64,000 nucleotides of DNA from a virus, in IMG/VR virus record IMGVR_UViG_3300045988_148972; one strand, given 5' to 3'. The position numbers and the translations under genes are program-made. The notes below the pieces were generated by a model. That model was not told where the DNA came from. It ran no database searches and saw only the letters and a program-made list of their open reading frames with translations. Shown here piece by piece: positions 6,125 through 63,623 of the stretch; the first letter of the stretch is position 1, and every line of letters begins with the position of its first letter.

Positions 6125-6165
6125 TGTTATGGAATCATATTAGAGATAGATAAACATCTTCTCCT

Positions 6166-6206
6166 ATTTTTGTCCTTTATATACTATACATGGATAATTA
6201 ACTTTA
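6166..6206 (+). promoter_or_regulatory. Degenerate copy of the recurrent TTTTGTCCTT element plus a -7-like box (TAACTTTA)
   Basis: TGTCCTTTA at 6171..6179, then TAACTTTA 28 nt downstream at 6199..6206. Sits 16 nt upstream of ATG 6222. Confidence 0.4.
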
Positions 6207-9671: not shown

Positions 9672-10025
9672 ATGAACAGATCCGGGAGGAAACATTTGGA
9701 CGCACCGATTATTCAGGATGTGATACGCCTGAATAATTGTCTCATAGAAATCAACAGCAAAGCTTATAAGGTCATAAGCAGAACATATATAGACCCTATG
9801 CTGAAGCAAGGCGCACTGCTTTTCAGCTACGCTATGCGCCAGGTCCGTGGAATGGACTATTATAAAAGAGCTACAGAGCTGACATACGAATTGCAGTTCG
9901 GAATATATCTGATAGTGGCTCTTGGAGGATGCAGCAAAGAGAAAGCGTCTGTAATAGACGTTTTGTGCGATAATATTTTATCTTCGCTTGCGAGGATAAA
10001 GAATGTCAGATCCGAAAAGTCTTGA
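9672..10025 (+). CDS. avd: DGR accessory variability determinant (Avd)-like protein
   Basis: 117-aa basic ORF that looks helical, sitting exactly between VR and TR, which is the canonical Avd position. Assigned from size and position, not verified by search. Confidence 0.65.
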   Translation: MNRSGRKHLDAPIIQDVIRLNNCLIEINSKAYKVISRTYIDPMLKQGALLFSYAMRQVRGMDYYKRATELTYELQFGIYLIVALGGCSKEKASVIDVLCDNILSSLARIKNVRSEKS

Positions 10026-10028
10026 ACT

Positions 10029-11501: not shown

Positions 11502-11538
11502 CGGACAACTGATAGCAACATTTAAAACCATAAACAAC

Positions 11539-12246: not shown

Positions 12247-12253
12247 TAGAATT

Positions 12254-12577
12254 ATGAAATTTTTTGATTGGTTAAAAGAAAGCAACCGGCTTTCTCACCT
12301 GAAAGTTGGTTTTGCCATTTGGATTGTTGTAATGCTTATCGGATGCTCCATGTTGAGCATGTTCGAAGAAGTTACTGATTTTGAACTTATGCAGGCGCAA
12401 GCCATTACGATTACATGCTCCTTGCTAGCAGATTTAACCGTATTTATTTCCATGTGTGCCGTGGAATATGTACAGAAATCATCCGGCATAGGTAAGTTTG
12501 ACTGGCTCGATATTCTGGCAGGGATGATTACTCCTCTAATTATTACTATTGTAATTGTAATTATATATCTATTATAA
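12254..12577 (+). CDS. Small membrane protein (about 3 TM helices), holin-class candidate
   Basis: 107 aa with three long hydrophobic stretches. Lies at the head of the lysis region. Confidence 0.5.
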   Translation: MKFFDWLKESNRLSHLKVGFAIWIVVMLIGCSMLSMFEEVTDFELMQAQAITITCSLLADLTVFISMCAVEYVQKSSGIGKFDWLDILAGMITPLIITIVIVIIYLL

Positions 12578-12711: not shown

Positions 12712-12737
12712 GGAGACAAGCGATTGTTTCCTTTTTT
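12712..12737 (+). terminator. Rho-independent terminator
   Basis: GGAGACAA-gcga-TTGTTTCC (8 bp including one G-U), followed by TTTTTT. Confidence 0.55.
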
Positions 12738-12796
12738 GTCCTCCTTTGAACCGTATTTTTTTGTCCTTCACTCTTCTATATTCTCTTTATAACTTT
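12733..12796 (+). promoter_or_regulatory. Recurrent TTTTTGTCCTTCA element (plus an upstream half copy TGTCCTCC) with a -7 box TAACTTTG
   Basis: TGTCCTCC at 12737..12744, TGTCCTTCA at 12762..12770, TAACTTTG at 12789..12796. ATG at 12841. Confidence 0.6.
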
Positions 12797-12840
12797 GTAT
12801 TGCAACAAAAACCAAATGTTTAACTAAAAACGACGACAAA

Positions 12841-13239
12841 ATGAAAAAGATGATTTTAATGTTTGCAATGCTGATCTCTGCATTGACCGTTTTCGCGCAG
12901 GGCGCTGTAACCTCTGAACCTTCTACTGCCGGATTCGTAATCGACCTGGGAACGTTCACCGGAATCGTAGCACTTATCTCGGCTATCGTGACGCAGATCC
13001 TGAAAGTAATTCCTGCCATTTCAGGAAGCAAGCTCGCAAAAATCGGTGTGAGCGTGGCGGTAGGTATGGTGGTTTGCGTGCTGGCATGGGCGCTTCAGCT
13101 TACTCCTCTGCTCGAAGGATACCAATGGTGGGGAACGCTTATTTACGGACTGGCTGCCGGACTTAGTGGATGCGGTTTCTACGATGTGGTAAAAGCTATT
13201 GCCGCTCTTTTTAAGGATAATACGGAAGAGATGGAATAA
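12841..13239 (+). CDS. Membrane protein with an N-terminal signal-like helix and about 3 TM segments, holin candidate
   Basis: 132 aa with several Gly/Ala-rich hydrophobic helices and a charged C-terminal tail (KDNTEEME). Upstream of the endolysin. Confidence 0.5.
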   Translation: MKKMILMFAMLISALTVFAQGAVTSEPSTAGFVIDLGTFTGIVALISAIVTQILKVIPAISGSKLAKIGVSVAVGMVVCVLAWALQLTPLLEGYQWWGTLIYGLAAGLSGCGFYDVVKAIAALFKDNTEEME

Positions 13240-13263: not shown

Positions 13264-13896
13264 ATGGACGCAGAAATGGTGACGGCCATAAGCGCAGCTG
13301 TAGTTTCCGTGGGTACCTTGATTTTTACTCAGTACAACAAAATGACGCAGAAGTATCGTGACAAGATGAACGATATGAAGTTGGAACGGTACAAGCAGGA
13401 AACCGAACGTCTTAGCTTCAAGCGAAGCGAGAACACGGCAAAGGTATTTGGTGAGCTGTGGAAGGTGCTCTACGAGACAAAGGCCGACAGGGTGTACATC
13501 GTACAGCCGCACCCGCTGGGTAACGCAGCCTTCCTTTCCATCTATTTCGAAGTGAAACGCAAGGGGGTATCGGGCATGAAAGACAACGTGCAGCGGCTCC
13601 CTATGAGCGAAATGGCAGTATTCAGCAGAGGACTGGCCGAAAACCTGTTTCTCTGCTATACGGATATAGATTCTCAAGTGAAGGACAAGATGGCCAAATC
13701 CCTGTTTATAACCAATGGCTGTCGCGCCGTGGCCATAAAGAGGCTGAACAGCGCTTCCGACTGGGTAGGAAACATCTTCTGCGAGTTTACCGACGAAATG
13801 GAGGTAAGTGAGGAACAAGCCCATAAGGTGCTGCACGATGCAGCAGTGAACATACAGTTCATTCTTCCGGAATACCGGGAGAATCCCTATAAATAG
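13264..13896 (+). CDS. Hypothetical protein with a single N-terminal TM helix
   Basis: 210 aa. Hydrophobic residues 6-23, then a soluble domain. Lies in the lysis cassette, so a lysis regulator is possible but unproven. Confidence 0.55.
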   Translation: MDAEMVTAISAAVVSVGTLIFTQYNKMTQKYRDKMNDMKLERYKQETERLSFKRSENTAKVFGELWKVLYETKADRVYIVQPHPLGNAAFLSIYFEVKRKGVSGMKDNVQRLPMSEMAVFSRGLAENLFLCYTDIDSQVKDKMAKSLFITNGCRAVAIKRLNSASDWVGNIFCEFTDEMEVSEEQAHKVLHDAAVNIQFILPEYRENPYK

Positions 13897-14501: not shown

Positions 14502-14537
14502 CCACAGTCACAACACAAAAACTAAACTAGACACGAC

Positions 14538-15110
14538 ATGAAAATCTGGATTGATAACGGTCATGGTGCAGACACCAAAGGGAAGCAGTCGCCAGACGGA
14601 CGGTTGCGCGAATATGCCTATGCACGCGACATTGCACGCCGCGTGGTGGATGCGCTAAAAAAGAAAGGGCTCGACGCGCAGCTGCTCGTTCCGGAAGAGG
14701 AAGACATTTCGCTTCAGGAACGGTGCGCACGCGCCAACCGGGTGAAAGACAGCATCCTGGTATCCGTCCATTGCAACGCTGCCGGAAGCGGCACGCAGTG
14801 GATGACCGCACGCGGATGGGAAGCATGGACCAGCGTAGGTCAGACCAAGGCCGACAAACTGGCCGAATGTCTGTATCAGAGTGCGGAGCAGGTGCTGAAA
14901 GGCATGAAGCTTCGAAAGGACACCACCGACGGTGACAGCGACAAGGAAAGCGGTTTCTATATTCTGAAACACACTGCATGCCCGGCCGTGCTGACGGAAA
15001 ACCTTTTCCAGGACAATCGCGAAGATGTGGACTTCCTTCTGTCGGATGAAGGCCGCCAGAAGATTGTCACGCTGCATGTGCAGGGAATCTGTAAATACCT
15101 GGGCGTATGA
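14538..15110 (+). CDS. Endolysin, N-acetylmuramoyl-L-alanine amidase (Amidase_3 type)
   Basis: IWIDNGHGADTKGK...SVHCNAAGSG...GFYILKHTACPAVLTENLFQDN matches the Amidase_3 zinc-amidase signature. Confidence 0.8.
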   Translation: MKIWIDNGHGADTKGKQSPDGRLREYAYARDIARRVVDALKKKGLDAQLLVPEEEDISLQERCARANRVKDSILVSVHCNAAGSGTQWMTARGWEAWTSVGQTKADKLAECLYQSAEQVLKGMKLRKDTTDGDSDKESGFYILKHTACPAVLTENLFQDNREDVDFLLSDEGRQKIVTLHVQGICKYLGV

Positions 15111-15728: not shown

Positions 15729-16034
15729 ATGAGTAAGAGTGAGATTTTTAACACCATCCTCCGCATGGTATCGGAGGAAACGGAAATACCGTCTGCACAG
15801 ATCCTTTCTGGCAGGAAGGACACAGAGACGGTAGATGCACGCTATCTGCTCGTGCATTTCCTTTTTCAGAGCGGATTGAATCCGTCGTATATCGCTGCAC
15901 GAATCGGAAAGACGGAGCGTGCCGTCAACCAGATTCATACCAATTTTGACCAGCGTCTCAGCACACAGAAAATATTCAGAATAAGTTGCGAAAGAATCAG
16001 GAAGAGGTTAGGAAATAACTCATTCCCAGAGTAA
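15729..16034 (+). CDS. Small HTH protein resembling DnaA domain IV
   Basis: ..TETVDARYLLVHFLFQSGLNPSYIAARIGKTERAVNQI.. resembles the DnaA C-terminal DNA-binding helix pattern. Weak, by eye only. Confidence 0.4.
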   Translation: MSKSEIFNTILRMVSEETEIPSAQILSGRKDTETVDARYLLVHFLFQSGLNPSYIAARIGKTERAVNQIHTNFDQRLSTQKIFRISCERIRKRLGNNSFPE

Positions 16035-16611: not shown

Positions 16612-16628
16612 TCAACTGCTGAAATCCA

Positions 16629-16653
16629 GGGGAGGGCATAGGCCTTCCCCTTT
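16629..16653 (+). terminator. Stem-loop followed by a short T-run
   Basis: GGGGAGGGC-atag-GCCTTCCCC (9 bp, one G-U), followed by TTT. Confidence 0.45.
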
Positions 16654-16701
16654 CCCTTATGATTTTCATACTCCACACAAACAACTCAAACACGCAGCAC
16701 A

Positions 16702-17193: not shown

Positions 17194-17252
17194 GGCCGAG
17201 GGCAGGCGGCACGTAGTCCTGTCATAACACAACACAAACACAACCAAAAGCT

Positions 17253-19255: not shown

Positions 19256-19297
19256 TTTTTTTGTCCTTCATTTCCAGATTCCTGCTGCCTAACTTTG
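19256..19297 (+). promoter_or_regulatory. Recurrent TTTTTTTGTCCTTCA element with a -7 box TAACTTTG
   Basis: TGTCCTTCA at 19262..19270, then TAACTTTG at 19290..19297 (28 nt offset). ATG at 19318. Confidence 0.6.
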
Positions 19298-19317: not shown

Positions 19318-22300
19318 ATGGCAAATAGTTTAGGTACCAGACTGGCTAGAATCGACGTGCTTATCGGAGGAGCTGATCAGGCTCGTAAACAAGTAGAAGA
19401 AATGCGCAAAGAATGGGCAAAACTTGGGAAACAAGTCCAGGAAGCGCAACGTAATATGGAGAAATCCGTTGATACTGTTGATTACGATAAGAATAAGAAA
19501 GCATACGCAGAAGCTCAGAAACAGCAGAAACAGCTTCAGAAATCCATCCAGGAGTCAGAACGTAATATAAATACAGTTCAGAAATATCTTTCGGATATTT
19601 CCGGACAGACTCTTCGTAACCTTAATAATGCGCAAAAAGGATTGAAGCAGATGCTTCTTGGCGTTAATCCTAAAAATATAGAATCACTGAATACCGTCCG
19701 CGAATATATCAAGCAGATATCCGATGAAGTACAACGCCGTAAGGGTAATCTTGTTGAGTTTTCAGATATTATAGGTAATATAGGAAATGTGAGCGATAAG
19801 TCACTAGGAATGGCTAAACAGCGGCTTCAGGAACTTATTTCAACCACTCAAAAAAATACGCAGGAAATTCAGACTTATCGTGAGCAGCTTAAAAAGGTGG
19901 AAGACGAGGAGCAGCGCCGAATAAGCTCTAAGGCTGGACGAGTAATGGGAGATTTGGATGGAAGTAGCATAGCAGAAATCCAAGAAGCTATTAAGTTAAC
20001 AACTCAGCTTCGCGATGCTCAGAAATTGGGAGGCCAGGAATGGGATATCTATAATGGAGAAATACAGAAGGCACAAAAATACCTGGAAGACTTTAATAGT
20101 AAGATAAAGCAACTAACCATGTTCCGTCAGATGGGAGATTTGACCAAGGTTAGTTCTTCTTCTCTTTCAGAATTAAAAAGATACTGGCAAGAACAAGTTA
20201 ATGGTGCTGAAACTACATCCGCTAAGTTGAAACATTATCAGATTCAGCTGCAGGCTGTAATGAAAGAAGAAGAAAGACGTATTAGCGTACAGGCTGGTAA
20301 GGTTATGGGAAATCTTACCGGGTCTTCTGTGTCTGAAATTCAGGAAGCCATTAAGGTTACAACTCAGCTTCGCGATGCTCAAAAACTTGGAAGTCAGGAG
20401 TGGGATGTTTACAATGATGAAATACAAAAGGCACAAAAATATCTGTCTGATTTTAACAACTTGACGAAACAGCTTTCCATGTCTGAGCGGATGCGTGATA
20501 TTGGGAAAGCCAGTGAAGCATCGCTAATAGAGTTGAAAAAATACTGGCAGGAGCAGGTAAATGGTGCACAGCGTGGAACTCAAGAGCTAGCTGAATATGA
20601 AGCAAAACTTAAACAGGTTTTGGATGAAGAGAAGAAACGCTCGGCTAAAAGTGCCGTCAGTGTATTCAGTAATTTAAGTGGAAGTAGCCTTACTGAGATT
20701 CAGGATGCGATTAGGGCAACAACCCAACTTCGTGATGCGACAGAACTTGGCTCAAAGCAATGGGATATATATAATCAGTACATTGAACGAGCTAAGAAGT
20801 ATCTTTCTGATTTTGAGAATGCAAGTAAAAATGCGGCTATTGCAGAACGCATGAAGAATATTGGAAATGTCAGCACATCCTCACTGGCTGAACTGAAAAA
20901 GTTTTGGCAAGAGCAGATAGATGGGGCAGAACTTTCTTCTCAAAAATTACAGAATTATAAGCAGAACTTAGATGCTGTTATCAAAGAAGAACAAAATCGT
21001 GTTTCTCAGCGTGCGCAGTCTACTATCGGCCAAGTACAGACCGGTACATTTGACGGGACCATTGCACAGACAAAAGAAGCAATTAAGCTATTAGAACAGT
21101 ATAAGCAACAGCTTAAGACCAGTGATGCGCAGGGTATTAAGGATGTGGAATCTACTATTAATTCATTGAATGAAAAGCTGAAGCAATCATCCGCTCAATT
21201 TTCTTCTTTGGATGAAGCACTCGATAAAGCTGGAACAGTTGGTAATGGCACATTCGATGGCACACAAGAGGATCTTGATAAACTGAAAAAATCGCTCGAA
21301 GAATATAAGAAACAGCTGAAAGTGAGTGATACTAAAGGTTTGAAAAAGATTGAAGATGCGATTAGTACAATTGAGAAAAAGCAGAAAAATGCAGTATTAA
21401 GTGCACAAGAATTAGAAAAAGTAATTCTGACAATTAAAACCGCTCCTTTGGAAGACCTGCAAAAGGCAGCAGCCCAACTTCAGGAGAAACTTGCAACAGC
21501 TGAACGTGACACACGAGAATATGTAGATACGTCACTAAATCTTCGTCGTGTAAATGAGCAGATCAATGAAGTGAAACGAAGCTGGCAGGATCATGACAAC
21601 CAGATTGTAGCTACGATAAAACGTTTGACAAGCTATGTATTAGTATATGCCGGCTTTAATGAAGTCGTAGGGCGTATCAAACAGTTGTATCAGGCTAACC
21701 TGGAACTTAGCGATAGTCTGGCGGACATTCAGAAAACTACCGGCCTTTCTGCTGAGTCTGTTGCAGAGCTAAGCCGAGAAATTGATGAAATTGATACCCG
21801 TACTGCACAGCAAGAGCTCCACGATCTAGCTTATGAGGCAGGTAAACTGGGTATCTCTGCTAAGGAAGATGTGCTTGGATTTGTAAAGGCTGGTAATCAG
21901 TTACTCGTAGCGTTAGGTGAAGATTTGGGAGGTGCCGAAGCTGTACGTCAGCTGATGAAGGTAAATGCTATTCTTGGTGAAACTCAAAAGCTTGGTGTGG
22001 AAAAGGCTTTGCTGGCAACTGGTTCTGCTATCAATGAAATTTCACAGACAAGTCGTGCTTCTGCCGGTCCGATAGTTGATGTAGTAAATCGTATCGGTGC
22101 TATTGGGGAAGCTGCTGGTCTTTCTATGTCCGACCTGATAGCACTGGCTGGTACACTTGATGCACTTGGACAGCATGCAGAAATGGGAGGTACTGCATTG
22201 AATACCTTTATTTCTACTCTTACAAGTAACACAACCGAAGTAGCACAGGCTGTAGGACTGAGCGACGAATATCTTAAAAATCTGATTGATCAAGGGAAGA

Positions 22301-25300
22301 CTATTCAGGCAGTTATAGCTGTTTTAGAGAAGATGAAAGCAATGGGTGGTTTGGATGTACTGGCTCCTATAATGAAAGATTTGGGAAGCGACGGAGAACG
22401 TATCAAGCAGGTACTTGTTACTTTGTCCTCTGGAGTTGACGAATTGAAAGCTCAGGTATTTACATCATCTCGTGCGTTTAAAGAAGCCACCAGCGTAACA
22501 GATGAATATAATATAAAGAATGAAGATGCTATGGCCATCATGATGCGTATGGGTAATGCTATCAAGGAGTCATTTATAAACAGTGGTCTGGTAGAATGGC
22601 TTACCGATGTTCTAAGATTCATGGCTAGTATTCCGAACCGATTTGAGCGTGGAGAAACCTCTATACGTCTTACGGCAGTAGCATTGCAAGTATTGGTTGG
22701 AGTTTTGATTGCCACCTCTAAGGCTGTTCAAAATGCCAGTATGAATATTCTGTTTTTTTACCAAAGGGTTAATGCCGGAACTGCATCTGTGAACATATTT
22801 GTAAAAGCTTGGAACGCTTTAAAATTTGCCATGTCTTCAAATCCTTTGGGTTGGATTACGCTGGCTGTTACGGCTCTCACGTCAGCATGGACTTTATTAA
22901 AAAAATCAGTAAATGAAGCGGCAAAGGCGCAGGCAGAATATGAAGGGACTTTGCAAAAAGAACGGTTTGAATTGGATAATCTTCGTTTTGCTATCGAAAA
23001 AGCTAATGTAGCCAATGGAGAACGTGCGGCGTTGATAAAACAGCTCAATGATAAGTACGGTGCATATCTTGGGTTCATGGTTACAGAAAATAATTATGCA
23101 GAAAAGCAGGAATATATTTATAGTCTGATTAATGCCCGTCTACGTGAAACTCTTGCTTTAAAGATGCGAGATAAAATGATGGAAAACATAGCGGACAAAT
23201 ATTCCGACCAAATACAGGAGCTTCAATCAAAGATTATTGCTTCACTGAATAATATGAAGAATGTTGGTGAAACGAATGCTGGTGATGCAATGGCTCTTAT
23301 TATGGACGGGATGAACAAGGTAGTGGAAGAAGGCGGAAATCTATATGATGCGCTGGAAGGCTTTATGGAAAAATATAATAAAAATATAAAGCAACTTCCA
23401 TTCAGTTCCGATGCCTTGAAGCTGATGAATATCCTTAAAAATATACGTAAGGAGGCAGGACAAACACAGACTTTCCTGGATAGTACACAACGCGCTGCTG
23501 AAAGCAGGACAGAGGAGCTTATGCTACAAGATCTTCGCAAGTCCAATCAGGGTATTCTTTCAACATCTGATCTATCTGCACTTAACACCTACTTGCAACA
23601 GGCCACCACTTACGTACAGCGTCTCCGTGAAGATGTAGATGAATTGAATGCAAAACGTGAGAAAGGAGAAAAACTTACTAAATCTGAAACAGCTGAACTT
23701 GCAGAAAAAAATCGGCAGTTAGGCGTATATCAGAACAATATTTCTCAGGTAGAGAAGCGTATAAAAGCAATAGGAATGGAGTCTGTATGGGGGAAGGGAG
23801 TATCTCTTGAAACTGCTGGTGTTGACAAGCTTGTAGCTACCTATAAGAAGCTCGAAGCCATGATGAAGAGTATTAATGAAGACAAGGACTATGCAGATAC
23901 ATTTGCTGCCCGTGGATTCAAGTCGGCCAAGGAAGAATACGAGGCGTTGAAAAAGATGGAGCAGGATGTGGCCAAGGTGCTTGCTGAGAAATGGGGACGC
24001 GACACCAGCGGTAACTGGCTCAAAGTACGTAAGTCAGGCACACGCGGCGAGCAGAAGGAAATGAATGATGAAATCAGTGCGGCCATGTCTGCGCTCGAAG
24101 CTTATTTTCTCCGCCGTCAGCAGGCTATTCGTCAGGCATATCTCGATGAACAGATAACTACTGAGGAGATGAACCGCCAGATTGACGCGACCGAGGAAGA
24201 ACATCTGCTGGCACGTGTGGAGCTTCGTAAAAAGCTGTTGGGCGAAGAGAATACCTTCAATCAGAATTTATACGGAATGGAAGGTAAGAACCTGGAATCT
24301 ACTGCTGCATTGATTAAAAAGCTGGGTGAACGTCAGACCGACGGGTTACGTAAGAACCTTGAAAAGGATCTGCTCGAAGTACAGAATATGGCGGTAAAAT
24401 ATAGTCAGAATATAGAAAAGGAACTTCTCAAGTATAATCCGTTTGAAAGCCTTATTAATCAATTTGAGGAATCTCTTGATAAGCTTCGTCTTCTGAATAC
24501 CGATTCGGAAAAGAAAATGAGAATGAGCTTAGGATTTAGCGGAGTGATTGATGAAAGTATGATTAAGGAAAGAATTAATGCCCTTATATCTCTGTCAGAA
24601 GATGCTTACAGCTTGAACGAAGATCAGTTACGGACTTATCTTAGCAATATTGATGCGCTATGGGCAGAAAGCATGAGCCCTGAACAGATGTCTCTTATGC
24701 TGAAAAAGCTTCGTGATTTTTATAGGGATTCCAAAGCAGCTGCCGAGAAGTATGCAAAGGACATTAAGGAAATGATAGACGTTCAGTGGGAAACTAGCGG
24801 AAGACAGAAACAATGGGAAGATCGTATAAATTTATCTAATGATCAAAGCGAAATGATGCGTGCAGCCGCCAATTTAGGGCTTGCTTCTTCTCAAAGCTCG
24901 TTTCTCGGTACTTCTGATACGGATAATGCCGAGCTGGAAGCCTTGCGAATCCGCCTGGAAGCTGCACAACAGTATTATGAAGAGTTCTATGCCCGTAAAC
25001 AAGAACTTATACAGCAGGCTATTGCTTCAGGCGCAACAGAGCAGCAAGCTCAAGAATACTATCACATGGCCGAGAAAGAGGCACTGGATGAACTTAACGC
25101 ATTGAGAGAAGAACAAGCTGCAAAGGAGCTTGAAATTACCCAAAGCAAACTGAGTACATTGAAAAATTACACAGATGCAATAGTAGATTTCAGTGAACAG
25201 ATGGGAGAAGCTGCATTTGCTGAAGTTGAAGACCGCAAAGAGGCTGCAAAGATGTTATTGCAAACAACCATTAAACTTACTAAGGACTTGATTATGCAAA

Positions 25301-26142
25301 AGATTCAGGAACTTATAATGAAAAAAGCTCTCGGTGCACAGGAAGTAGCTCAAGAATCAAGTACGCAAACTGCCATTACGGCTTTGCATGGCTCTCAGGC
25401 TATTACAGATCTTACAGTGCAGGGCGCAAAAACTACAGCTGACATTTCTGCGGGTATTGCTTCTGGATCAGCTAAAACAATCGGTCAGTTAGGATGGTGG
25501 GGAATACCTCTTATTGCTGCAATTACAGCCGCACTTTCTACATTAATGGGCTTGGCTATGGGCAAGCTGAACAAATCAAAGGAGGAGATAGCTTCAGCTA
25601 CTGGTGCAAGCAGTAATAAAGGCCGTGTCGCTGCTGGTATGCTTACATATAAAAATGGTGACTATCCTATATTGGGAAACGATGGGCATATTTACAATGC
25701 AAGTTATCAAAAGGAACTGAAAACGGGAGTATATAGTGGAGGTGCTCACTTCGGCCTTTTTTCTGAAAAGAAACCAGAAATGATTGTAGACGGAGATACA
25801 ACTCAGAAGCTTATTCTGAACTATCCGCACATTTACGAAAGCATTCTTACTATTGCCCGTCATGGACAGCTTAAGTCGGCATCTATGCCTACGTTTGCAA
25901 ACGGGAACTACCCTTCTATGGCTGTGCAATCTTCTCAGGCAAGACAGCAAGATAACTATTCCGGGATGTCTGGGGATCAGATAGCACAAATACTTGCAGA
26001 AATGACTGGCGCAGTAAATGCACTTACTGAACGGCTTAATAAGCCTATTAGCGCAACGGTTGATCCTTACGGAAGTAAAGGAGCCGTAAATCAGTTAAAT
26101 AAAGCAAGTAAGTTTATGACAAAGCGAGGATTGACTAAATAA
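19318..26142 (+). CDS. Tape measure protein
   Basis: About 2270 aa. Mostly coiled-coil Lys/Glu/Gln-rich sequence, a central hydrophobic/Gly-rich segment, and further hydrophobic stretches near the C-terminus. Followed by baseplate-like genes. The track ORF start at 19261 is a TTG inside the promoter element; the first ATG (MANSLGTRL) is at 19318. Confidence 0.85.
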   Translation: MANSLGTRLARIDVLIGGADQARKQVEEMRKEWAKLGKQVQEAQRNMEKSVDTVDYDKNKKAYAEAQKQQKQLQKSIQESERNINTVQKYLSDISGQTLRNLNNAQKGLKQMLLGVNPKNIESLNTVREYIKQISDEVQRRKGNLVEFSDIIGNIGNVSDKSLGMAKQRLQELISTTQKNTQEIQTYREQLKKVEDEEQRRISSKAGRVMGDLDGSSIAEIQEAIKLTTQLRDAQKLGGQEWDIYNGEIQKAQKYLEDFNSKIKQLTMFRQMGDLTKVSSSSLSELKRYWQEQVNGAETTSAKLKHYQIQLQAVMKEEERRISVQAGKVMGNLTGSSVSEIQEAIKVTTQLRDAQKLGSQEWDVYNDEIQKAQKYLSDFNNLTKQLSMSERMRDIGKASEASLIELKKYWQEQVNGAQRGTQELAEYEAKLKQVLDEEKKRSAKSAVSVFSNLSGSSLTEIQDAIRATTQLRDATELGSKQWDIYNQYIERAKKYLSDFENASKNAAIAERMKNIGNVSTSSLAELKKFWQEQIDGAELSSQKLQNYKQNLDAVIKEEQNRVSQRAQSTIGQVQTGTFDGTIAQTKEAIKLLEQYKQQLKTSDAQGIKDVESTINSLNEKLKQSSAQFSSLDEALDKAGTVGNGTFDGTQEDLDKLKKSLEEYKKQLKVSDTKGLKKIEDAISTIEKKQKNAVLSAQELEKVILTIKTAPLEDLQKAAAQLQEKLATAERDTREYVDTSLNLRRVNEQINEVKRSWQDHDNQIVATIKRLTSYVLVYAGFNEVVGRIKQLYQANLELSDSLADIQKTTGLSAESVAELSREIDEIDTRTAQQELHDLAYEAGKLGISAKEDVLGFVKAGNQLLVALGEDLGGAEAVRQLMKVNAILGETQKLGVEKALLATGSAINEISQTSRASAGPIVDVVNRIGAIGEAAGLSMSDLIALAGTLDALGQHAEMGGTALNTFISTLTSNTTEVAQAVGLSDEYLKNLIDQGKTIQAVIAVLEKMKAMGGLDVLAPIMKDLGSDGERIKQVLVTLSSGVDELKAQVFTSSRAFKEATSVTDEYNIKNEDAMAIMMRMGNAIKESFINSGLVEWLTDVLRFMASIPNRFERGETSIRLTAVALQVLVGVLIATSKAVQNASMNILFFYQRVNAGTASVNIFVKAWNALKFAMSSNPLGWITLAVTALTSAWTLLKKSVNEAAKAQAEYEGTLQKERFELDNLRFAIEKANVANGERAALIKQLNDKYGAYLGFMVTENNYAEKQEYIYSLINARLRETLALKMRDKMMENIADKYSDQIQELQSKIIASLNNMKNVGETNAGDAMALIMDGMNKVVEEGGNLYDALEGFMEKYNKNIKQLPFSSDALKLMNILKNIRKEAGQTQTFLDSTQRAAESRTEELMLQDLRKSNQGILSTSDLSALNTYLQQATTYVQRLREDVDELNAKREKGEKLTKSETAELAEKNRQLGVYQNNISQVEKRIKAIGMESVWGKGVSLETAGVDKLVATYKKLEAMMKSINEDKDYADTFAARGFKSAKEEYEALKKMEQDVAKVLAEKWGRDTSGNWLKVRKSGTRGEQKEMNDEISAAMSALEAYFLRRQQAIRQAYLDEQITTEEMNRQIDATEEEHLLARVELRKKLLGEENTFNQNLYGMEGKNLESTAALIKKLGERQTDGLRKNLEKDLLEVQNMAVKYSQNIEKELLKYNPFESLINQFEESLDKLRLLNTDSEKKMRMSLGFSGVIDESMIKERINALISLSEDAYSLNEDQLRTYLSNIDALWAESMSPEQMSLMLKKLRDFYRDSKAAAEKYAKDIKEMIDVQWETSGRQKQWEDRINLSNDQSEMMRAAANLGLASSQSSFLGTSDTDNAELEALRIRLEAAQQYYEEFYARKQELIQQAIASGATEQQAQEYYHMAEKEALDELNALREEQAAKELEITQSKLSTLKNYTDAIVDFSEQMGEAAFAEVEDRKEAAKMLLQTTIKLTKDLIMQKIQELIMKKALGAQEVAQESSTQTAITALHGSQAITDLTVQGAKTTADISAGIASGSAKTIGQLGWWGIPLIAAITAALSTLMGLAMGKLNKSKEEIASATGASSNKGRVAAGMLTYKNGDYPILGNDGHIYNASYQKELKTGVYSGGAHFGLFSEKKPEMIVDGDTTQKLILNYPHIYESILTIARHGQLKSASMPTFANGNYPSMAVQSSQARQQDNYSGMSGDQIAQILAEMTGAVNALTERLNKPISATVDPYGSKGAVNQLNKASKFMTKRGLTK
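19888..20967 (+). repeat. Three tandem 360-nt (120-aa) coding repeats inside the tape measure gene
   Basis: Units start at 19888, 20248 and 20608. Conserved ..GSS..EIQEAIK.TTQLRDAQKLG.QEWD.YN.EIQKAQKYL.DFN...L.ELKKYWQEQVNGA... More degenerate copies follow. Confidence 0.85.
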
Positions 26143-30748: not shown

Positions 30749-30820
30749 ACTTTGTAGGGTAAAAATAACAAAAAACGACCGAAACCGCAAAGACGGGAAA
30801 TAACAATATATATCAAAAGT

Positions 30821-31201
30821 ATGAAAATGAGCATCATTCAAGCATTATCCGAAAAGAAATTAAGTCCCATGCGATTGGGGTTCAGTCGCTATCTTGTGGA
30901 CCGTTACGGAATGAGCATGAGCACGGCTTACCAGAAGATACGTTTGAACCGTGTTCGCCGTTGGGAGGCGGAAGGAGTAGAAAAATGTCTTAGAGATTTT
31001 GATCCGGATTACGAAGGAAAGCTGGAAGACTTTTTTGCGCACGTGCGTGTGAAGGGTGAATTTATTGGGTTTATGAAAAAACGAGGCATGGGTGAACATG
31101 CGTTGCGTGCGCATTTCCGCAATTTTGACTTTACAGAAGTAGAGCTTCGTGGTCTGGAGGATATTTATAAGGAATACAAGAAACAGTTGGAGGAAATGTG
31201 A
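30821..31201 (+). CDS. Hypothetical early protein (126 aa)
   Basis: First gene of the rightward early operon. The segment SMSTAYQKIRLNRVRRWE could be an HTH, which is weak evidence. Confidence 0.55.
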   Translation: MKMSIIQALSEKKLSPMRLGFSRYLVDRYGMSMSTAYQKIRLNRVRRWEAEGVEKCLRDFDPDYEGKLEDFFAHVRVKGEFIGFMKKRGMGEHALRAHFRNFDFTEVELRGLEDIYKEYKKQLEEM

Positions 31202-31830
31202 TGGATATATTGGAAAGGCAATGGGAAGCGCACACACGTCTTCAGGATGGATTTTCAAGGATTGAGTTTGAAGACGGCGAAGAAATTACTATTAAAAACG
31301 ACGGGAAGACAGGAATAGATTTTGTAGAGGAATATCTCAAGGAAATGAAGAAGAACTATCCGTCGCATCTTGTTGCGGCAGACCTTCTATTGCAGATGCG
31401 CTTGGGACGTTCATATAAAACAATTCGGAGTCTGCGGAGCCGATATCTGTCAGAACTTGCACTGGTAAGTCTGAACTGCTGTTTCGGACGGGAGGATGAC
31501 ATTCCTGATCACGAAGGCCCGGAAGACTTTAATACGGAACATACACACTGTCCTATGCGATATAATTGTCCGTTTAATGGTTTTAATCCTGCTTTCAAGA
31601 ACAAAAAGGAGGTATGCTGCAATCCTGTATATGAATGCGGGCTGACTTCTACTCAGGCAGAAATAGCGAACATGCTGGTCAATACTTCATTTACTTACGA
31701 GGAAATTGCCGACGAATTGGGATGTAGCTATTCCAATATAGACAATATGAGGAAACGTATTTTCGCTAAACTGGGAGTGAATACACGTCCGGAACTTATG
31801 TTATTGCTTAAAGGGAAACGCTTGTTATGA
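31201..31830 (+). CDS. LuxR/GerE-type HTH transcription regulator with a Cys-rich central region
   Basis: The C-terminus LTSTQAEIANMLVNTSFTYEEIADELGCSYSNIDNMRKRIFAKLGV fits the LuxR-type HTH. The segment HTHCPMRYNCP...CCNPVYEC is Cys-rich. ATG 31201 overlaps the upstream stop (TGATG). Confidence 0.6.
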   Translation: MDILERQWEAHTRLQDGFSRIEFEDGEEITIKNDGKTGIDFVEEYLKEMKKNYPSHLVAADLLLQMRLGRSYKTIRSLRSRYLSELALVSLNCCFGREDDIPDHEGPEDFNTEHTHCPMRYNCPFNGFNPAFKNKKEVCCNPVYECGLTSTQAEIANMLVNTSFTYEEIADELGCSYSNIDNMRKRIFAKLGVNTRPELMLLLKGKRLL

Positions 31831-43814: not shown

Positions 43815-44863
43815 TTTTTAGTGCTTTATAAACGAGGATTGTAAAATAAGTTTTATATACAGGTTGAATTAAAACGCTAATTAATCACAATCTGATTCAT
43901 TTTTAAGAAGACGTAGGAGTGTATGTAATCGCACTTTTATGCCTTTTTTCTGTCAACAAAAGTCGTATTTCGTCACATAAATTCCAAACTGGCGTAGTAT
44001 CGCCACTGTGGCTGCGCTTAATAGGCACTTTTTTCGCGTAGTTACGCTATTTGAGTGGCGTAGGCACGAAACTTTCAGAAAAATCATTCCGACACAAAGA
44101 GAAAATCGCTTAGAAAATCAATTTAGTATCAAATATTACAAGTTTTACACACCCTTTGCAAAACATTTTGCAATTTGATAATCAGTTAGTTAAGTATCAT
44201 TTGTAAGCAATTTTGCAAAGCTTGCGAAGTGTTGGCGAAATTTTTGCAATGAATAACTATCTGATAATCAATTAAAAGTATTGTACTTTTTGATATTTTG
44301 CCGATTTTTCACGAAAAACGAGTTTACAAAATCTTTAAAATAAAAATTTTCGTAGGGTGGAGAAGGGTGTACATCAGTCGAATCATTTCTTCTTGTGAGC
44401 GCCCGAATGGGGAAGGAATCCGAAGGGAAACCTGAAAGAACGAAAGGAGGGAAAGGTCGGCCTGCGGAACGCGGGACGACAAAGCACGTCTTTCCCCTTT
44501 CGTTCTACTTCCTTTATATCCAATTTCATCGTGTAACAGAGAGAGCTACGCAATAGACATAAAAGAAAAAGCTGGACAGCCTGAAATCTGTTCTTTACCG
44601 AAAAAAATACGTTTTCTTCACTTCAAAATTAATGAACAATCGGCAATAACTCTTTATTTATTATTTATTTTCACTATAAATAATTGATAATTAAATAAAT
44701 AAGTATTGAGAATTGTTTTGCAAGAAAATTGCACAGCTTTGCAAAATCGTGAAAAACACGCAAAATAAGGTCCCAGGCGCTTAACCTTTTTTTGTTGAAT
44801 GAAATTCCGATTGGTGTTTAATCGTCCGTAACTTGCTGTTGATTAATTGATTTACATATATTT
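43815..44863. other. 1.05-kb non-coding region (candidate origin or regulatory hub)
   Basis: No ORF of 60 codons or more on either strand, in a genome that is otherwise about 95 percent coding. Contains six TTTGCAA(A) sites, AT-rich GATAATCA-like repeats and a GC/purine-rich nested hairpin. Confidence 0.7.
44437..44506 (+). ncRNA. Candidate structured RNA/DNA element: long imperfect hairpin with a nested GC-rich hairpin
   Basis: AGAACGAAAGGAGGGAAAG (44437..44455) pairs with CTTTCCCCTTTCGTTCT (44490..44506), leaving two bulged bases. The inner element GTCG-G-CCTGCG-gaa-CGCGGG-A-CGAC is at 44456..44480. Confidence 0.3.
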
Positions 44864-45511
44864 ATGAAAAGCCACAGCACAAAAAAGAATGTATCTGCAC
44901 CTCCGGTAATGTATGTCAAGCTTAGTATATATCTCCGCAAATACATGGAAAGCAGATATGGTAAAGATGTATTGATTATTCCGTTCATGAGCCCTATTTA
45001 TACATGTATGGAGCAGTATTTGGTCAACAATTACAGTATGGTCAAGATAAGTCCCAGAGCATGCTCACAGCGTATGTTCAACTATAACGGCACATCGGAT
45101 TTATTTGAAAGAAGTGGTATTTGTGTAATGGACACCGCTGAAAAACAGGAATATATTGCCGTACAGATACCCGAAAGAGTGTTTAAGGGTGGATTGATTG
45201 TGAAGACTTCAGATAACTGGCAGCTAAGCAATACCGGGTTTGTAGAGTTCAACAAACTGGTGAAGCGTGAGTTCTGGATGGAATGTATGACGTTTGTAGA
45301 CGAATGTTTCACTTCTGCACGAATCCAGGGATTGCGTACCACACGAGAAAATGCTATATCCGATTTTATGGTGGCCATGGATATACCGATGCAGTACTAT
45401 GAGAACATGATCAGGTATTACAATCGGATGATAAACCGTATTCATTCCGACATTGAAAAAAAGAGAGAATGGCTTGAAAGCTTAAATGATACCGCACTCA
45501 CCTATACATAA
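44864..45511 (+). CDS. Hypothetical protein (215 aa), first gene after the long non-coding region
   Basis: ATG ORF with no recognised motif. Confidence 0.6.
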   Translation: MKSHSTKKNVSAPPVMYVKLSIYLRKYMESRYGKDVLIIPFMSPIYTCMEQYLVNNYSMVKISPRACSQRMFNYNGTSDLFERSGICVMDTAEKQEYIAVQIPERVFKGGLIVKTSDNWQLSNTGFVEFNKLVKREFWMECMTFVDECFTSARIQGLRTTRENAISDFMVAMDIPMQYYENMIRYYNRMINRIHSDIEKKREWLESLNDTALTYT

Positions 45512-45561
45512 ACAGAAATTAATACATGAATAACCCGAAATAATAGTTAAAAAACAAGAGA

Positions 45562-45594
45562 TTTTGTCCTCCTGTTTGTCCTTCGCTATTTTTA
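45562..45594 (+). promoter_or_regulatory. Recurrent element, variant arrangement (TGTCCTCC + TGTCCTTCG) with TATTTTTA
   Basis: TGTCCTCC at 45565..45572, TGTCCTTCG at 45577..45585, -7-like TATTTTTA at 45587..45594. ATG at 45617. Confidence 0.4.
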
Positions 45595-46360: not shown

Positions 46361-46402
46361 TTTTTGTGTCCTTCATTACCGCATTTCGCGTGCGTAATTT
46401 CG
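46361..46402 (+). promoter_or_regulatory. Recurrent TTTTTGTGTCCTTCA element with a -7-like box TAATTTCG
   Basis: TGTCCTTCA at 46367..46375, then TAATTTCG at 46395..46402 (28 nt offset). ATG at 46432. Confidence 0.55.
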
Positions 46403-50571: not shown

Positions 50572-50607
50572 AAAGTCCGGCACTTGCTAATCGGTGCCGG
50601 ACTTTTT
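50572..50607 (+). terminator. Rho-independent terminator
   Basis: Perfect 12-bp stem AAAGTCCGGCAC / GTGCCGGACTTT with a 10-nt loop, running into a T-run. Confidence 0.75.
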
Positions 50608-50644
50608 ATGTCCTTCAACGGCATATTGGTTTTCCCTACTTTTG
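50603..50644 (+). promoter_or_regulatory. Recurrent TTTTTATGTCCTTCA element with a -7 box TACTTTTG
   Basis: TGTCCTTCA at 50609..50617, then TACTTTTG at 50637..50644 (28 nt offset). ATG at 50672. Confidence 0.6.
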
Positions 50645-61731: not shown

Positions 61732-61805
61732 GGCCTGTCAAAACAAATGCAGCAAACCACTTTAGAGGTTGCTGGCGCACGATTCAAAAGCCAGTTTCAG
61801 AAGTG

Positions 61806-61847
61806 TTTTTTGTCCTTCAAAAACGGTCGGTCTGGGAGGTAATTTAG
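61806..61847 (+). promoter_or_regulatory. Recurrent TTTTTTGTCCTTCA element with a -7-like box TAATTTAG
   Basis: TGTCCTTCA at 61811..61819, then TAATTTAG at 61840..61847 (29 nt offset). ATG at 61895. Confidence 0.5.
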
Positions 61848-63161: not shown

Positions 63162-63623
63162 ATGAATGAGAAGCAAAACATCATAGCAGAAAAAATACTT
63201 TTAGTATTAAAAGAATCAAATGGACATATAAGGGAAAGTGACCTTCTTGATAAACTTGAGAGTGTAGATAATTCTTTCAATCAATTAGAAAGTACTTTTG
63301 TGATAAGCCGAATGATAGAAGACTATAAGCTTGTTTATCGCTCAAAATCATGGATATGCTTGTCTTCCAATGGTGAGGTAGCTATAAATTTAGGAATAAG
63401 TAAATATATCAGAAAGATACACTCTAACCAACGGTTAGACATTAAGATGAAAAGACTTGAAGTCATATCAAAAATCCTTTCAATAATAAAAGACAGTCAT
63501 ACCATACTGACTATTGCAGTAACAGCAGTATGTACTTCCTTAATATATACCCTATCACCAAACCTAAAGGAGCTCCTAAAATTATTCCTACAATGGTGCA
63601 AATCAATTTTCTTTTCTTCATAG
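63162..63623 (+). CDS. Hypothetical protein with a C-terminal hydrophobic segment (153 aa)
   Basis: ATG ORF, followed by a + strand terminator at 63691..63725. Confidence 0.55.
   Translation: MNEKQNIIAEKILLVLKESNGHIRESDLLDKLESVDNSFNQLESTFVISRMIEDYKLVYRSKSWICLSSNGEVAINLGISKYIRKIHSNQRLDIKMKRLEVISKILSIIKDSHTILTIAVTAVCTSLIYTLSPNLKELLKLFLQWCKSIFFSS

What the first reader, a model, noticed from the sequence alone, without database searches (positions are those of the whole stretch)
19256..19297. Conserved TTTTTGTCCTTCA element at a fixed distance from a -7 box, repeated in front of seven structural or late operons
The core TGTCCTTCA, preceded by a T-run, occurs at 12762, 19262, 46367, 50609 and 61811. 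Variants are TGTCCTTTA at 6171 and TGTCCTTCG at 45577. In six of the seven cases a TAnnTTTG-like box starts 27-29 nt downstream of the core T: TAACTTTG 12789, TAACTTTG 19290, TACTTTTG 50637, TAATTTCG 46395, TAATTTAG 61840, TAACTTTA 6199. Each site lies 30-80 nt upstream of a gene start (lysis, tape measure, protease-scaffold, post-capsid genes, HU-like protein). Two sites carry an extra upstream half copy, TGTCCTCC (12737 and 45565). The accessory genes instead have only a plain TAnnTTTG box. The element is longer and further upstream than the generic Bacteroides -33 TTTG. It therefore looks like a phage-specific promoter class or activator site that defines a late regulon.
Basis: seen in the sequence. 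Interest (0 to 1): 0.65.

Follow-up and report, generated by a model that had tools for sequence, protein, structure and literature searches.

The report
Shared late-gene promoter box of Bacteroidales phages
A 13-base box (TTTTTGTCCTTCA) sits exactly 19 bases upstream of a normal Bacteroides-type -7 promoter element in front of six late operons (lysis, tail, head, HU-like) of this temperate phage. The same box is kept in very distant relatives, so it most likely marks a late-gene promoter class switched on by a still unidentified phage factor.

Summary
On the + strand TGTCCTT[CT][AG] occurs 7 times, always in the ~10% of the window that is intergenic. The 3 minus-strand copies are all inside genes.

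Six sites share one rigid layout: T-run, GTCC(TTCA), 19 nt (20 at one site), then TAHHTTTG. They lie 50-83 nt before the starts of late operons: a tail-region operon, holin/endolysin, tape measure, protease/capsid, post-capsid genes and the HU-HIG gene.

The seventh site (45577) is different. It is a tandem TTTGTCx repeat with no -7 box at the right distance.

The box, its spacing and the -7 element are kept at orthologous positions in 9 relatives whose capsid protein is only 31-71% identical, while the spacer sequence drifts. The same architecture appears in other Bacteroidales prophage lineages, for example in B. intestinalis and B. timonensis.

With the -7 box at -12..-5, GTCC lies at -39..-36, and TTCA lies where the -33 TTTG normally sits.

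My best reading is an activator-dependent late promoter that uses the host sigma factor.

- The only protein that co-occurs with the box in every lineage examined is an orphan ~215-aa family (44864-45511), which has no known fold.
- The LuxR/GerE-type early protein (31198-31830) is a weaker candidate.

Nothing here was tested by transcription data. I rate it a new member of a known kind, of moderate interest.

The parts
6165..6206 (+). Late-type promoter 1: TATTTTT-GTCCTTTA-N19-TAACTTTA, 50 nt from the G to ATG 6222 (94-aa gene, then genes to 9594 with weak tail-type matches only)
   Evidence: PHROG hits
12756..12797 (+). Late-type promoter 2: T7-GTCCTTCA-N19-TAACTTTG, in front of holin 12841, 13264-13896 and endolysin 14538
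12731..12745 (+). Extra upstream half copy CTTTTTTGTCCTCCT, 25 nt upstream of promoter 2; no -7 box of its own
19256..19297 (+). Late-type promoter 3 (the finding's coordinates): T7-GTCCTTCA-N19-TAACTTTG, 55 nt from the G to ATG 19318 of the tape measure gene (19318-26142), then tail genes to 29409
46361..46402 (+). Late-type promoter 4: TTTTTGT-GTCCTTCA-N19-TAATTTCG, in front of protease/scaffold 46432, major capsid 48050 and two paralogous genes
50577..50600 (+). Terminator-like hairpin CCGGCAC-N10-GTGCCGG; its T-tail is the T-run of promoter 5. A hairpin sits at this junction in most of the ten phages compared
50603..50644 (+). Late-type promoter 5: TTTTTAT-GTCCTTCA-N19-TACTTTTG, in front of 50672-51874 and 51871-52437. 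In relatives this operon runs straight on into the ~220-aa gene and the large terminase
61805..61847 (+). Late-type promoter 6: GTTTTTT-GTCCTTCA-N20-TAATTTAG (the only site with a 20-nt spacer), in front of HU-HIG gene 61895-62377
   Evidence: an orthologous box precedes HU-HIG in L053
63639..63680 (-). Possible further site on the minus strand: ATGTATT-GTCCTTTC-N19-TATCTTTG, in front of a 36-aa hydrophobic ORF (63621..63511). The T-run is weak, so this is doubtful
45559..45594 (+). Not a member of the class: tandem TTTTGTCCTCC / TTTGTCCTTCG repeat (12-nt period) between the 215-aa gene and the 146-aa gene. There is no -7 box at +27. The first TTTG is 20 nt from TATTTTTA, so the layout is canonical -33/-7. 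The repeat unit differs between phages but is duplicated within each
43815..43856 (+). Decayed copy of a box: TTTTTA-GTGCTTTA-N18-TAAGTTTT. Most close relatives have TTTTTA-GTCCTTCA here, at the start of the ~1 kb non-coding block
44864..45511 (+). Orphan 215-aa protein, the best candidate reader of the box. It is always the first gene after the non-coding block and before the head genes. Homologues occur in every box-bearing lineage examined
31198..31830 (+). Early 210-aa protein with a C-terminal LuxR/GerE-type HTH and a novel Cys-rich N-terminal part; second candidate regulator

Best explanation
These sites are the promoters of the phage's late (lysis and virion) operons.

**Layout.** Each promoter keeps the host primary-sigma -7 element TAHHTTTG. 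In place of the usual -33 TTTG it carries a fixed box, T-run + GTCC + TTCA, 19 nt upstream of the TA. If TA is at -12, the T-run is at about -44..-40, GTCC at -39..-36 and TTCA at -35..-32.

**Inferred mechanism.** The host RNA polymerase with its primary sigma factor reads the -7 element but binds these promoters poorly on its own, because the -33 position holds TTCA and the box's own TTTG is 26 nt away. A phage-encoded DNA-binding protein recognises TTTTGTCC next to the -33 position, as a class II activator would, and recruits the polymerase. All late operons are thereby switched on together.

**Operon insulation.** Several late operons end in a hairpin terminator whose T-tail is also the T-run of the next box. 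Each operon is thus terminated and then restarted under the same control.

**Candidate reader.** The best candidate is the orphan ~215-aa protein family encoded at 44864-45511.

**Shown:** the sites, their strand and position, the fixed spacing, their conservation, the late functions of the downstream genes, and the co-occurrence of the box with the 215-aa family.

**Inferred:** promoter activity, late timing, the need for an activator, and the identity of that activator.
For: - **Non-random placement.** 7 of 7 + strand hits are intergenic and the minus-strand hits are all coding. The composite pattern occurs 8 times against 0.15 expected.
- **Rigid geometry.** The distance from G to TA is 27 nt in 27 of 29 sites collected from the window and 8 distant relatives, although 26-28 was allowed.
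- **Host-type -7 element.** None of the accepted sites has G at the two middle positions of the -7 box. This fits the revised consensus TAHHTTTG with T-12 A-11 T-8 T-7 T-6 G-5 (PMC6847099).
- **Late genes downstream.** Holin, endolysin, tape measure, protease/scaffold, capsid and HU-HIG.
- **Phylogenetic footprint.** Across 10 phages with capsid identity down to 31%, GTCC is kept 100%, the T-run 79-87% and the -7 box 90-93%. The spacer is at 53% and the flanks at 49-60%.
- **Other lineages.** The same architecture precedes holin-like, tail-fibre and terminase-proximal genes in other Bacteroidales prophage lineages whose large terminase is only ~22% identical.
- **Not a general host promoter.** Among the GTDB Bacteroidales hits shown, those with a T-run or hairpin and a gene start close by were the ones in phage-like contexts. 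The others lacked those features and look like chance matches.
- **A protein half-site rather than a sigma element.** TTTTGTCC also occurs just downstream of the 215-family gene, as a 12-nt tandem repeat in the window and as a perfect inverted repeat TTTTGTCC-N9-GGACAAAA in L183.
- **Co-occurrence with the 215-aa family.** The family is present in the syntenic position in all 9 relatives. Its HMM also hits loci that were fetched only because they carry the DNA box: L183/L275 (E about 1e-12, the prophage type of B. intestinalis and B. timonensis), L110 (2.5e-7) and, weakly, L059. The family is rare: 93 clusters among 1.84 billion representatives.
Against: - There are no transcription data, so start sites, timing and activator dependence are all inferred.
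- The 215-aa family has no recognisable DNA-binding domain, its structure model is mediocre (pLDDT 72), and it matches no fold in PDB or BFVD.
- Members of the family are only 16-39% identical across phages that share an invariant box. That is unusual for a site-specific regulator and could point to a conserved host reader instead.
- The 215-aa gene also sits next to an iteron-rich, origin-like region just after the primase. It could therefore be a replication protein that merely travels with the same phage backbone.
- The box shows no dyad symmetry.
- The canonical -33/-7 spacing of 19-21 nt is taken from my own knowledge of the Bacteroides and Flavobacterium promoter literature. It was not retrieved here.
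Confidence: 0.55

Rival explanations
1. The sites are constitutive strong promoters read by the host polymerase alone. The T-run acts as an UP-like element for the alpha subunit, and GTCCTTCA is a tolerated or favourable -35-region sequence for the host primary sigma factor. No phage factor is needed, and late timing comes from elsewhere (gene dosage after replication, or read-through control).
For: - The box is invariant across lineages whose proteins have diverged to 16-39% identity. That is easiest to explain if a conserved host component reads it.
- The -7 element is fully host-type.
- A phage-derived promoter, P_BfP1E6, is known to be strongly constitutive in phage-free Bacteroides (bioRxiv 10.1101/2025.03.18.644028).
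Against: - Among the representative Bacteroidales genome loci shown, the hits with the full architecture were the ones in phage-like contexts; the others lacked a T-run or hairpin and had no gene start nearby.
- Unregulated expression of holin and endolysin from a prophage would be lethal to the lysogen.
- TTCA sits where TTTG is expected, and the spacers are not AT-rich, unlike strong Bacteroidota promoters.
- I could not retrieve the sequence of P_BfP1E6 for comparison.
Confidence: 0.15
2. This is an alternative-sigma or sigma-appropriation promoter. Either a phage-encoded sigma-like factor, or a pair that remodels host sigma region 4 (as T4 AsiA/MotA do), reads GTCCTTCA as the -35-type element while TAnnTTTG serves as the -10-type element.
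For: - The box occupies exactly the -35-type position, at a fixed 19-nt spacing from the -7 element. This is sigma-like geometry.
- It parallels T4 middle promoters, where a MotA box at -30 replaces the -35 element (own knowledge).
Against: - No sigma-like protein was found among the window proteins scanned.
- The only protein with sigma-region-4 similarity (31198-31830) is a LuxR/GerE-type regulator with a novel N-terminal part and no sigma region 2.
- The 215-aa model is not sigma-like.
- TTTTGTCC also occurs as tandem and inverted repeats, which fits a transcription factor better than a sigma factor.
- Only 64 kb of a roughly 100-110 kb genome was visible, so a sigma gene outside the window cannot be excluded.
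Confidence: 0.12
3. The mechanism is the same as in the best explanation, but the reader of the box is the early LuxR/GerE-type protein 31198-31830. It would act like LuxR or GerE at a site overlapping the -35 region.
For: - It is the only protein in the window with a confidently recognised HTH of an activator family (model pLDDT 91; C-terminal 57 residues superpose on DosR, LiaR, NarL and GerE at about 0.8-1 A).
- It is the second gene of the early operon, next to the CI-like repressor.
- It is conserved in L052, L176 and L178.
- LuxR/GerE-family activators commonly bind at class II positions (own knowledge).
Against: - Its predicted recognition helix is YSNIDNMRKRIFAKL in the window but KRTTEKLGSEVFATI in the homologue P0231 of L178. 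Yet L178 uses GTCCTTCG boxes at the same two orthologous promoters.
- The box has no dyad symmetry, which this family usually needs.
- No homologue was detected in the box-bearing loci L183, L275, L110 or L059, although their early regions were mostly outside the fetched DNA.
Confidence: 0.12
4. The motif is not a promoter element at all. It could be a remnant of terminator T-tails, an insulator, or a site for packaging, recombination or a nucleoid protein such as the phage HU-HIG.
For: - In the post-capsid set most boxes follow a hairpin, so the T-run doubles as a terminator tail.
- The phage encodes an HU-family protein.
Against: - Many boxes have no hairpin (19256, 12756, 6165).
- GTCC and the exact 19-nt distance to a -7 box are conserved, which a terminator does not need.
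- The sites are strand-specific and always point at the next gene.
Confidence: 0.04

Closest known systems
Bacteriophage Mu late promoters (Plys, PI, PP, Pmom) activated by protein C
   Same: - Several dispersed late operons (lysis, head, tail, an accessory gene) are transcribed by host RNA polymerase.
- The -35 elements are non-consensus, and a shared activator site overlaps the promoter (PMC4461284).
   Different: - C binds as a dimer; the box here shows no dyad symmetry.
- No C/Mor homologue was detected among the window proteins scanned.
- The host promoter grammar is -33/-7 of Bacteroidota, not -35/-10.
T4 middle promoters (MotA box at -30 plus sigma-70 -10 element; MotA/AsiA sigma appropriation)
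   Same: - A host-type downstream element is retained.
- The upstream sigma-region-4 element is replaced by a phage-specific box at a fixed distance, repeated in front of many phage genes (own knowledge).
   Different: - No MotA or AsiA homologue was seen in the proteins scanned.
- The box is centred roughly 8 nt further upstream relative to the downstream element.
- This is a temperate phage of Bacteroidota.
RinA / ArpU / LtrC late activators of Gram-positive temperate phages
   Same: The activator gene lies immediately upstream of the packaging and morphogenesis genes and turns on the late operon (PMC3152322, abstract seen). The 215-aa gene has the same position, directly before the head genes.
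   Different: - Those phages usually have one late promoter before terS. Here at least six dispersed promoters share the box.
- The 215-aa family gave no Pfam, PHROG or NCBIfam match.
Canonical Bacteroides sigma-ABfr promoter (-33 TTTG / -7 TAnnTTTG)
   Same: The -7 element is identical, including the avoidance of G at the two middle positions, and the distance to the start codon is similar.
   Different: - TTCA sits at the usual -33 place.
- The box's own TTTG is 26 nt from TA, against about 19-21 (own knowledge).
- GTCC and a T-run are additional invariant bases.

Membership tests
Bacteroidota primary-sigma (sigma-ABfr) promoter | -7 element TAnnTTTG (revised TAHHTTTG) a short distance upstream of the transcription start | tested here: met
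   In the window: TAACTTTG twice, TACTTTTG, TAATTTCG, TAATTTAG and TAACTTTA. None of the accepted sites in the window or 8 relatives has G at positions 3-4.
Bacteroidota primary-sigma (sigma-ABfr) promoter | -33 element TTTG about 19-21 nt upstream of the -7 element | tested here: not met
   The 4 nt that end 19 nt upstream of TA are TTCA. The TTTG inside the box is 26 nt from TA. The canonical spacing is from own knowledge; the motifs themselves are cited.
Bacteroidota primary-sigma (sigma-ABfr) promoter | Mapped transcription start downstream of the -7 element | not testable with these tools
   No transcriptome or 5'-end data exist for this uncultured phage.
Activator-dependent phage late promoters (Mu C, P2 Ogr, RinA type) | One shared upstream element in front of several late (lysis or virion) operons, absent from early and accessory promoters | tested here: met
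   Six sites stand before lysis, tail, head and HU genes. The plain TAHHTTTG promoters at 57279, 57819/57828, 60146, 60218, 60286 and 63042 lack the box.
Activator-dependent phage late promoters (Mu C, P2 Ogr, RinA type) | Host-type downstream element combined with a defective upstream (-35-type) element | tested here: met
   A good -7 box is combined with TTCA in the -33 place.
Activator-dependent phage late promoters (Mu C, P2 Ogr, RinA type) | A phage-encoded protein that binds the element and is required for late transcription | not testable with these tools
   There are only candidates. The 215-aa family co-occurs with the box. The LuxR/GerE-type protein is weakened by its variable recognition helix.
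T4-type sigma appropriation (MotA/AsiA) | Homologues of MotA (box binder) and AsiA (sigma region 4 remodeller) | tested here: inconclusive
   No such family appeared among the window proteins scanned with Pfam, PHROGs or NCBIfam. Not all genes were scanned, and about 40% of the genome lies outside the window.
LuxR/GerE-family class II activator site | Dyad-symmetric site of about 18-20 bp centred near -42 | tested here: not met
   Only T-run + GTCC(TTCA) is conserved. Columns further upstream are at background (0.49-0.54 top-base frequency), and there is no inverted partner.
Intrinsic terminator | G+C-rich hairpin directly followed by a T-run | tested here: inconclusive
   A hairpin is present before the post-capsid box in the window (50577-50600) and in most relatives. 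There is none before 6165, 12756 or 19256. The T-run can double as a terminator tail but is not explained by that role.

The most novel reading that the evidence does not exclude
An orphan, fold-unknown ~160-230-aa protein family (44864-45511 and its relatives) is the master late activator of a broad set of gut Bacteroidales temperate phages. Its gene is always the first after the origin-like region and before the virion genes. It would read the half-site TTTTGTCC placed at -44..-36 and stand in for the sigma region 4 / -33 contact of the unusual Bacteroidota primary sigma factor. This would be a new activator family with a new way of reading a promoter in a phylum whose transcription activation is barely studied.
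Probability: 0.3. Interest if true: 0.7.

Novelty: new member of a known kind. Interest (0 to 1): 0.5.

Why it matters
I found no published late-promoter consensus or late activator for Bacteroidales temperate phages. A 2026 preprint on prophage induction still only hypothesises which genes activate the middle and late genes.

A 13-nt box with fixed spacing that marks late operons in several prophage lineages would have four uses:
- It would improve annotation of operons and late genes in the many uncultured gut phages whose proteins have no matches.
- It would give a sequence handle for telling which prophage genes are lytic-cycle genes in metatranscriptomes.
- It would supply tightly off/on promoter parts for Bacteroides synthetic biology.
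- It would point to a concrete, testable candidate for the regulator.

It also offers a natural example of how activation works with the atypical -33/-7 promoter grammar of Bacteroidota.

Tried and rejected
- **Nucleotide and capsid-protein searches of GenBank phages and PLSDB plasmids.** No match, so there is no annotated relative to lean on.
- **Rfam and tRNA scans of the window.** Nothing found.
- **Sigma-70-type promoter scan.** At shuffle level, as expected for a Bacteroidota phage, and uninformative.
- **Full-text search for the motif string.** It returned only primer sequences in unrelated papers.
- **B. thetaiotaomicron 'PM2' alternative promoter motif.** It is near-palindromic with -10/-30 elements and linked to oxidative stress, so it is not this box.
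- **Fold searches.** The 215-aa model gave nothing significant in PDB or BFVD; the best was an uncharacterised Polaribacter phage protein at E = 0.07. For the LuxR-type protein only the HTH matched.
- **GTDB scan for the DNA pattern.** Results were truncated at 120 rows and consisted mostly of single chance hits in many phyla. It became useful only after filtering for Bacteroidales hits with the full architecture.
- **IMG/VR search with the distant family member P0090.** Nothing found.
- **The 146-aa gene (45617-46057) as regulator.** Rejected: it is absent from L177, L183, L110 and L059, which still carry boxes.
- **15729-16034 as regulator.** It has only sub-threshold Pfam hits and lies inside the lysis operon.
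- **Profile-profile checks of the distant family members.** The built-in tool failed, and my own hhalign run also failed. I relied instead on two collinear HMMER domain hits.

Full report
**1. What the window is**

Almost all genes are on the + strand. Family searches identified the following genes:
- a tail protein or fibre (167-5152);
- a reverse transcriptase (10029-11501), probably part of a diversity-generating retroelement;
- a holin (12841-13239) and an endolysin (14538-15110);
- a tape measure protein (19318-26142);
- a Cro/CI-type HTH protein on the minus strand (29398-30684);
- an early LuxR/GerE-type protein (31198-31830);
- a primase with a CHC2 zinc finger (32042-35431);
- a head protease/scaffold (46432-48006) and a major capsid protein (48050-49306);
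- DNA methyltransferases, a large terminase (54839-56665), an anti-repressor-like protein (60419-61420) and an HU-HIG protein (61895-62377).

The window is therefore 64 kb of a temperate siphovirus-type phage. IMG/VR holds about 49 near-identical contigs (protease 87-98% identical, most 94-98%), many of them about 100-110 kb long. GenBank phages and PLSDB plasmids hold no relative, either at the DNA level or by capsid protein. The use of TAnnTTTG boxes, and a capsid relative that one source names as from Bacteroides sp. (P0038), place the host in Bacteroidales.

**2. The observation**

- TGTCCTTCA occurs 7 times in the window against 0.55 expected.
- On the + strand TGTCCTT[CT][AG] occurs 7 times, always in intergenic DNA, which makes up about 10% of the window. 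The 3 minus-strand copies are all inside genes.
- An unbiased k-mer test of intergenic against total sequence puts TGTCCTT (7 of 7) and TGTCCTTC (6 of 6) among the most enriched words.
- Six sites share one layout: T-run, GTCCTT(C/T)A, 19 nt (20 at 61812), TA(A/C)(C/T)TT(T/C/A)(G/A). The G of GTCC lies 50-83 nt before the next ATG.
- The composite pattern GTCCTT-N21-TANNTT occurs 8 times against 0.15 expected.

**3. One of the seven sites is a different element**

At 45559-45594 there are two copies of TTTGTCC 12 nt apart, and no -7 box 27 nt downstream. Every relative has a 12-nt tandem repeat at this spot, between the ~215-aa and ~146-aa genes. The unit differs between phages but is duplicated within each:
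- GTCAGTC twice in L050;
- GTCGC twice in L051;
- GTCCGC twice in L052;
- GTCCCCT twice in L054.

The late boxes of those same phages stay GTCCTT. In the window the first TTTG is 20 nt from TATTTTTA, which is the canonical -33/-7 layout. I therefore treat this site as a separate element, either a promoter or an operator.

**4. Conservation**

Using capsid homologues of graded identity, I fetched contigs with 71, 64, 53, 47, 42, 41, 38 and 31% capsid identity (L050-L055, L176, L177). One more, L178, came through a LuxR-type homologue. Gene order around the head module is conserved.

At the two orthologous positions, upstream of the protease and upstream of the post-capsid gene, all ten phages carry the box. 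GTCC is invariant, the T-run is 79-87% conserved and the six defined -7 positions 90-93%. The 19-nt spacer (53%) and the flanks (49-60%) are at background.

Over all sites collected with a loose filter that allowed a G-to-TA distance of 26-28 nt, 27 of 29 have exactly 27. The only two sites inside coding sequence (41055 and 63225) look like false positives, and 41055 has G's in the middle of its -7 box. The most distant relative, L177, uses the variant GTCCCCA(T/A). L052 and L053 use AGTCCTTCA and GTCCTG.

Close relatives show further boxes in the part of the genome outside this window, before 87-, 341- and 333-aa genes. They also have one at the start of the 1-kb non-coding block, where the window has a decayed copy, GTGCTTTA.

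**5. The box is not confined to this phage family**

An exact-pattern scan of GTDB representative genomes mostly returned scattered single hits in many phyla. Among the Bacteroidales hits, about ten show the full architecture: often a hairpin, then T-run, box, -7 element and a gene start within 10-45 nt. They precede holin-like membrane proteins, long tail-fibre-like proteins or terminase-proximal genes.

Two of them, in B. intestinalis (L133) and B. timonensis (L155), lie about 1 kb upstream of a large terminase only ~22% identical to the window's. The same prophage type is present in IMG/VR (L183, L275). The Bacteroidales hits without a T-run or hairpin had no gene start nearby and look like chance matches. 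The box therefore behaves as a phage late-gene signal and not as a general host promoter type.

**6. Position relative to the promoter**

In Bacteroidota the -7 element spans T-12 A-11 .. T-8 T-7 T-6 G-5, and G is avoided at -10 and -9 (PMC6847099). All accepted sites obey that rule. With TA at -12:
- GTCC lies at -39..-36;
- TTCA lies at -35..-32;
- the T-run lies at about -44..-40.

The canonical upstream element is TTTG at about -33. From my own knowledge of the B. fragilis and F. johnsoniae promoter studies, it lies about 19-21 nt from the -7 box. Here that place holds TTCA, and the box's own TTTG is 26 nt away.

A good downstream element, a poor upstream element and an invariant extra motif centred near -41 is the classic layout of a class II activator-dependent promoter.

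**7. Who reads the box?**

*(a) The LuxR-type early protein (31198-31830).* It folds confidently (pLDDT 91). Only its last ~57 residues match anything, namely LuxR/GerE/NarL HTH domains. The Cys-rich N-terminal part is novel, and the protein is not a sigma factor. It is conserved next to the repressor in L052, L176 and L178. Its predicted recognition helix is quite different in the L178 homologue, which nevertheless uses GTCCTTCG boxes at the same promoters. That argues against it.

*(b) The 215-aa protein (44864-45511).*
- It has no Pfam, PHROG or NCBIfam match, and a mediocre model with no fold match.
- Its family is small: 93 clusters at 50% identity among 1.84 billion representatives.
- It is always the first gene after a ~1 kb iteron-rich non-coding block and directly before the head genes. 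This holds even where the early operon is inverted (L176, L178).
- An HMM of the family also hits loci that I had fetched only because they contain the DNA box: L183/L275 (E about 1e-12), L110 (2.5e-7) and, weakly, L059 (0.01). In L183 and L110 there are two collinear domain matches, to the N-terminal PYxAxYL motif and to the C-terminal helices that end in a very basic tail.
- Just downstream of the family gene, TTTTGTCC occurs as a tandem repeat (window) or as a perfect inverted repeat TTTTGTCC-N9-GGACAAAA (L183). That is what one expects of an operator for a DNA-binding protein.
- The 146-aa neighbour is absent from L177, L183, L110 and L059 and can be set aside.

*(c) Against the 215-aa candidate.* Its members are only 16-39% identical while the box is invariant. 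Its position next to lineage-specific iterons and the primase would also suit a replication initiator.

**8. Verdict**

The sites are very probably promoters of the late regulon (about 0.85). That they depend on a phage-encoded activator acting with the host sigma factor is the best-supported mechanism (about 0.55-0.6). That the activator is the 215-aa family is a lead (about 0.3). The rivals are a constitutive host-read promoter, an alternative sigma or sigma appropriation, the LuxR-type protein as reader, and a non-promoter element.

The closest known systems are Mu C-dependent late promoters, T4 MotA-dependent middle promoters, and the RinA/ArpU class of late activators whose genes sit just upstream of the packaging genes. 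I found no description of this box or of a late activator for Bacteroidales phages.

I rate it a new member of a known kind, useful for annotating and engineering Bacteroides phages, and of moderate interest.

Noticed in passing
window 43815-44863: About 1 kb of non-coding DNA before the 215-aa gene, with TTTGCAA/TTGCAAA repeats (44155, 44167, 44212, 44243, 44717, 44738). Every relative has such a block in the same place, each lineage with its own iteron (L183 GTCCAAC/GTTGGAC, L110 GTAACAAA, L059 TGCACGATT). In L052, L183 and L110 it follows the primase directly. It looks like a replication origin.
   Followed up: partly
window 30700-30790 and 60095-60160: Two copies of a ~45-nt promoter/operator-like sequence (AAGTACGATT..ATG.GAT..TCAAATTAA.ATTGTTAC.TTTG). 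One is between the CI-like repressor and the early operon, the other upstream of the anti-repressor-like gene 60419-61420. Both are probably controlled by the same repressor.
   Followed up: no
window 14502-14537, 16612-16701, 17194-17252, 48007-48049, 49307-49385: C/A-rich leaders (ACACAACACAAACACAAAC and similar) directly before the start codons of late genes. ACACAAA is among the most intergenic-enriched 7-mers. This may be a translation signal in a host that lacks Shine-Dalgarno sequences.
   Followed up: no
window 63900-64000: A 10-nt tandem repeat (CTGGTGTCCG x3, then CTGGTGGCTG x6) in a G+C-rich stretch that runs off the end of the window.
   Followed up: no
window 49386-49928 and 49960-50526: Two adjacent genes downstream of the capsid gene are paralogues. 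They share an identical 33-mer, seen as a double hit in the pattern search.
   Followed up: no
window 9672-12577: A reverse transcriptase (10029-11501, PHROG 1423) lies next to tail-fibre-type genes and is followed by 750 nt that I left unannotated. This is probably a diversity-generating retroelement.
   Followed up: no
window 46376-46394 and orthologous spacers in L050-L054, L176, L178: The 19-nt spacer of the protease promoter holds a small dyad. Its sequence differs between phages but its symmetry is kept: L176 AACCGCgtaGCGGTT, L178 AACCGCgaaGCGGTT, L054 CCGCCCtacGGGCGG, L051 AGGCTTtcaAGCCT, window CGCAtttcgcgTGCG. Unexplained.
   Followed up: no
window 63511-63621 (minus strand): A 36-aa hydrophobic ORF (MKKRKLICTIVGIILGAPLGLVIGYILRKYILLLLQ) lies behind a box-like site. 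It converges on and overlaps the end of ORF 63162-63623. It may be a small membrane peptide or toxin.
   Followed up: partly
L069 6157 (-) and 6188 (+): In a Bacteroidaceae MAG prophage, two complete boxes stand back to back and drive divergent operons.
   Followed up: no
L054 1179-4805: A relative with 41% capsid identity carries ParA-type and DnaA_N/Rep-type genes upstream of the head module. Some members of this family may be maintained as plasmid-prophages.
   Followed up: no
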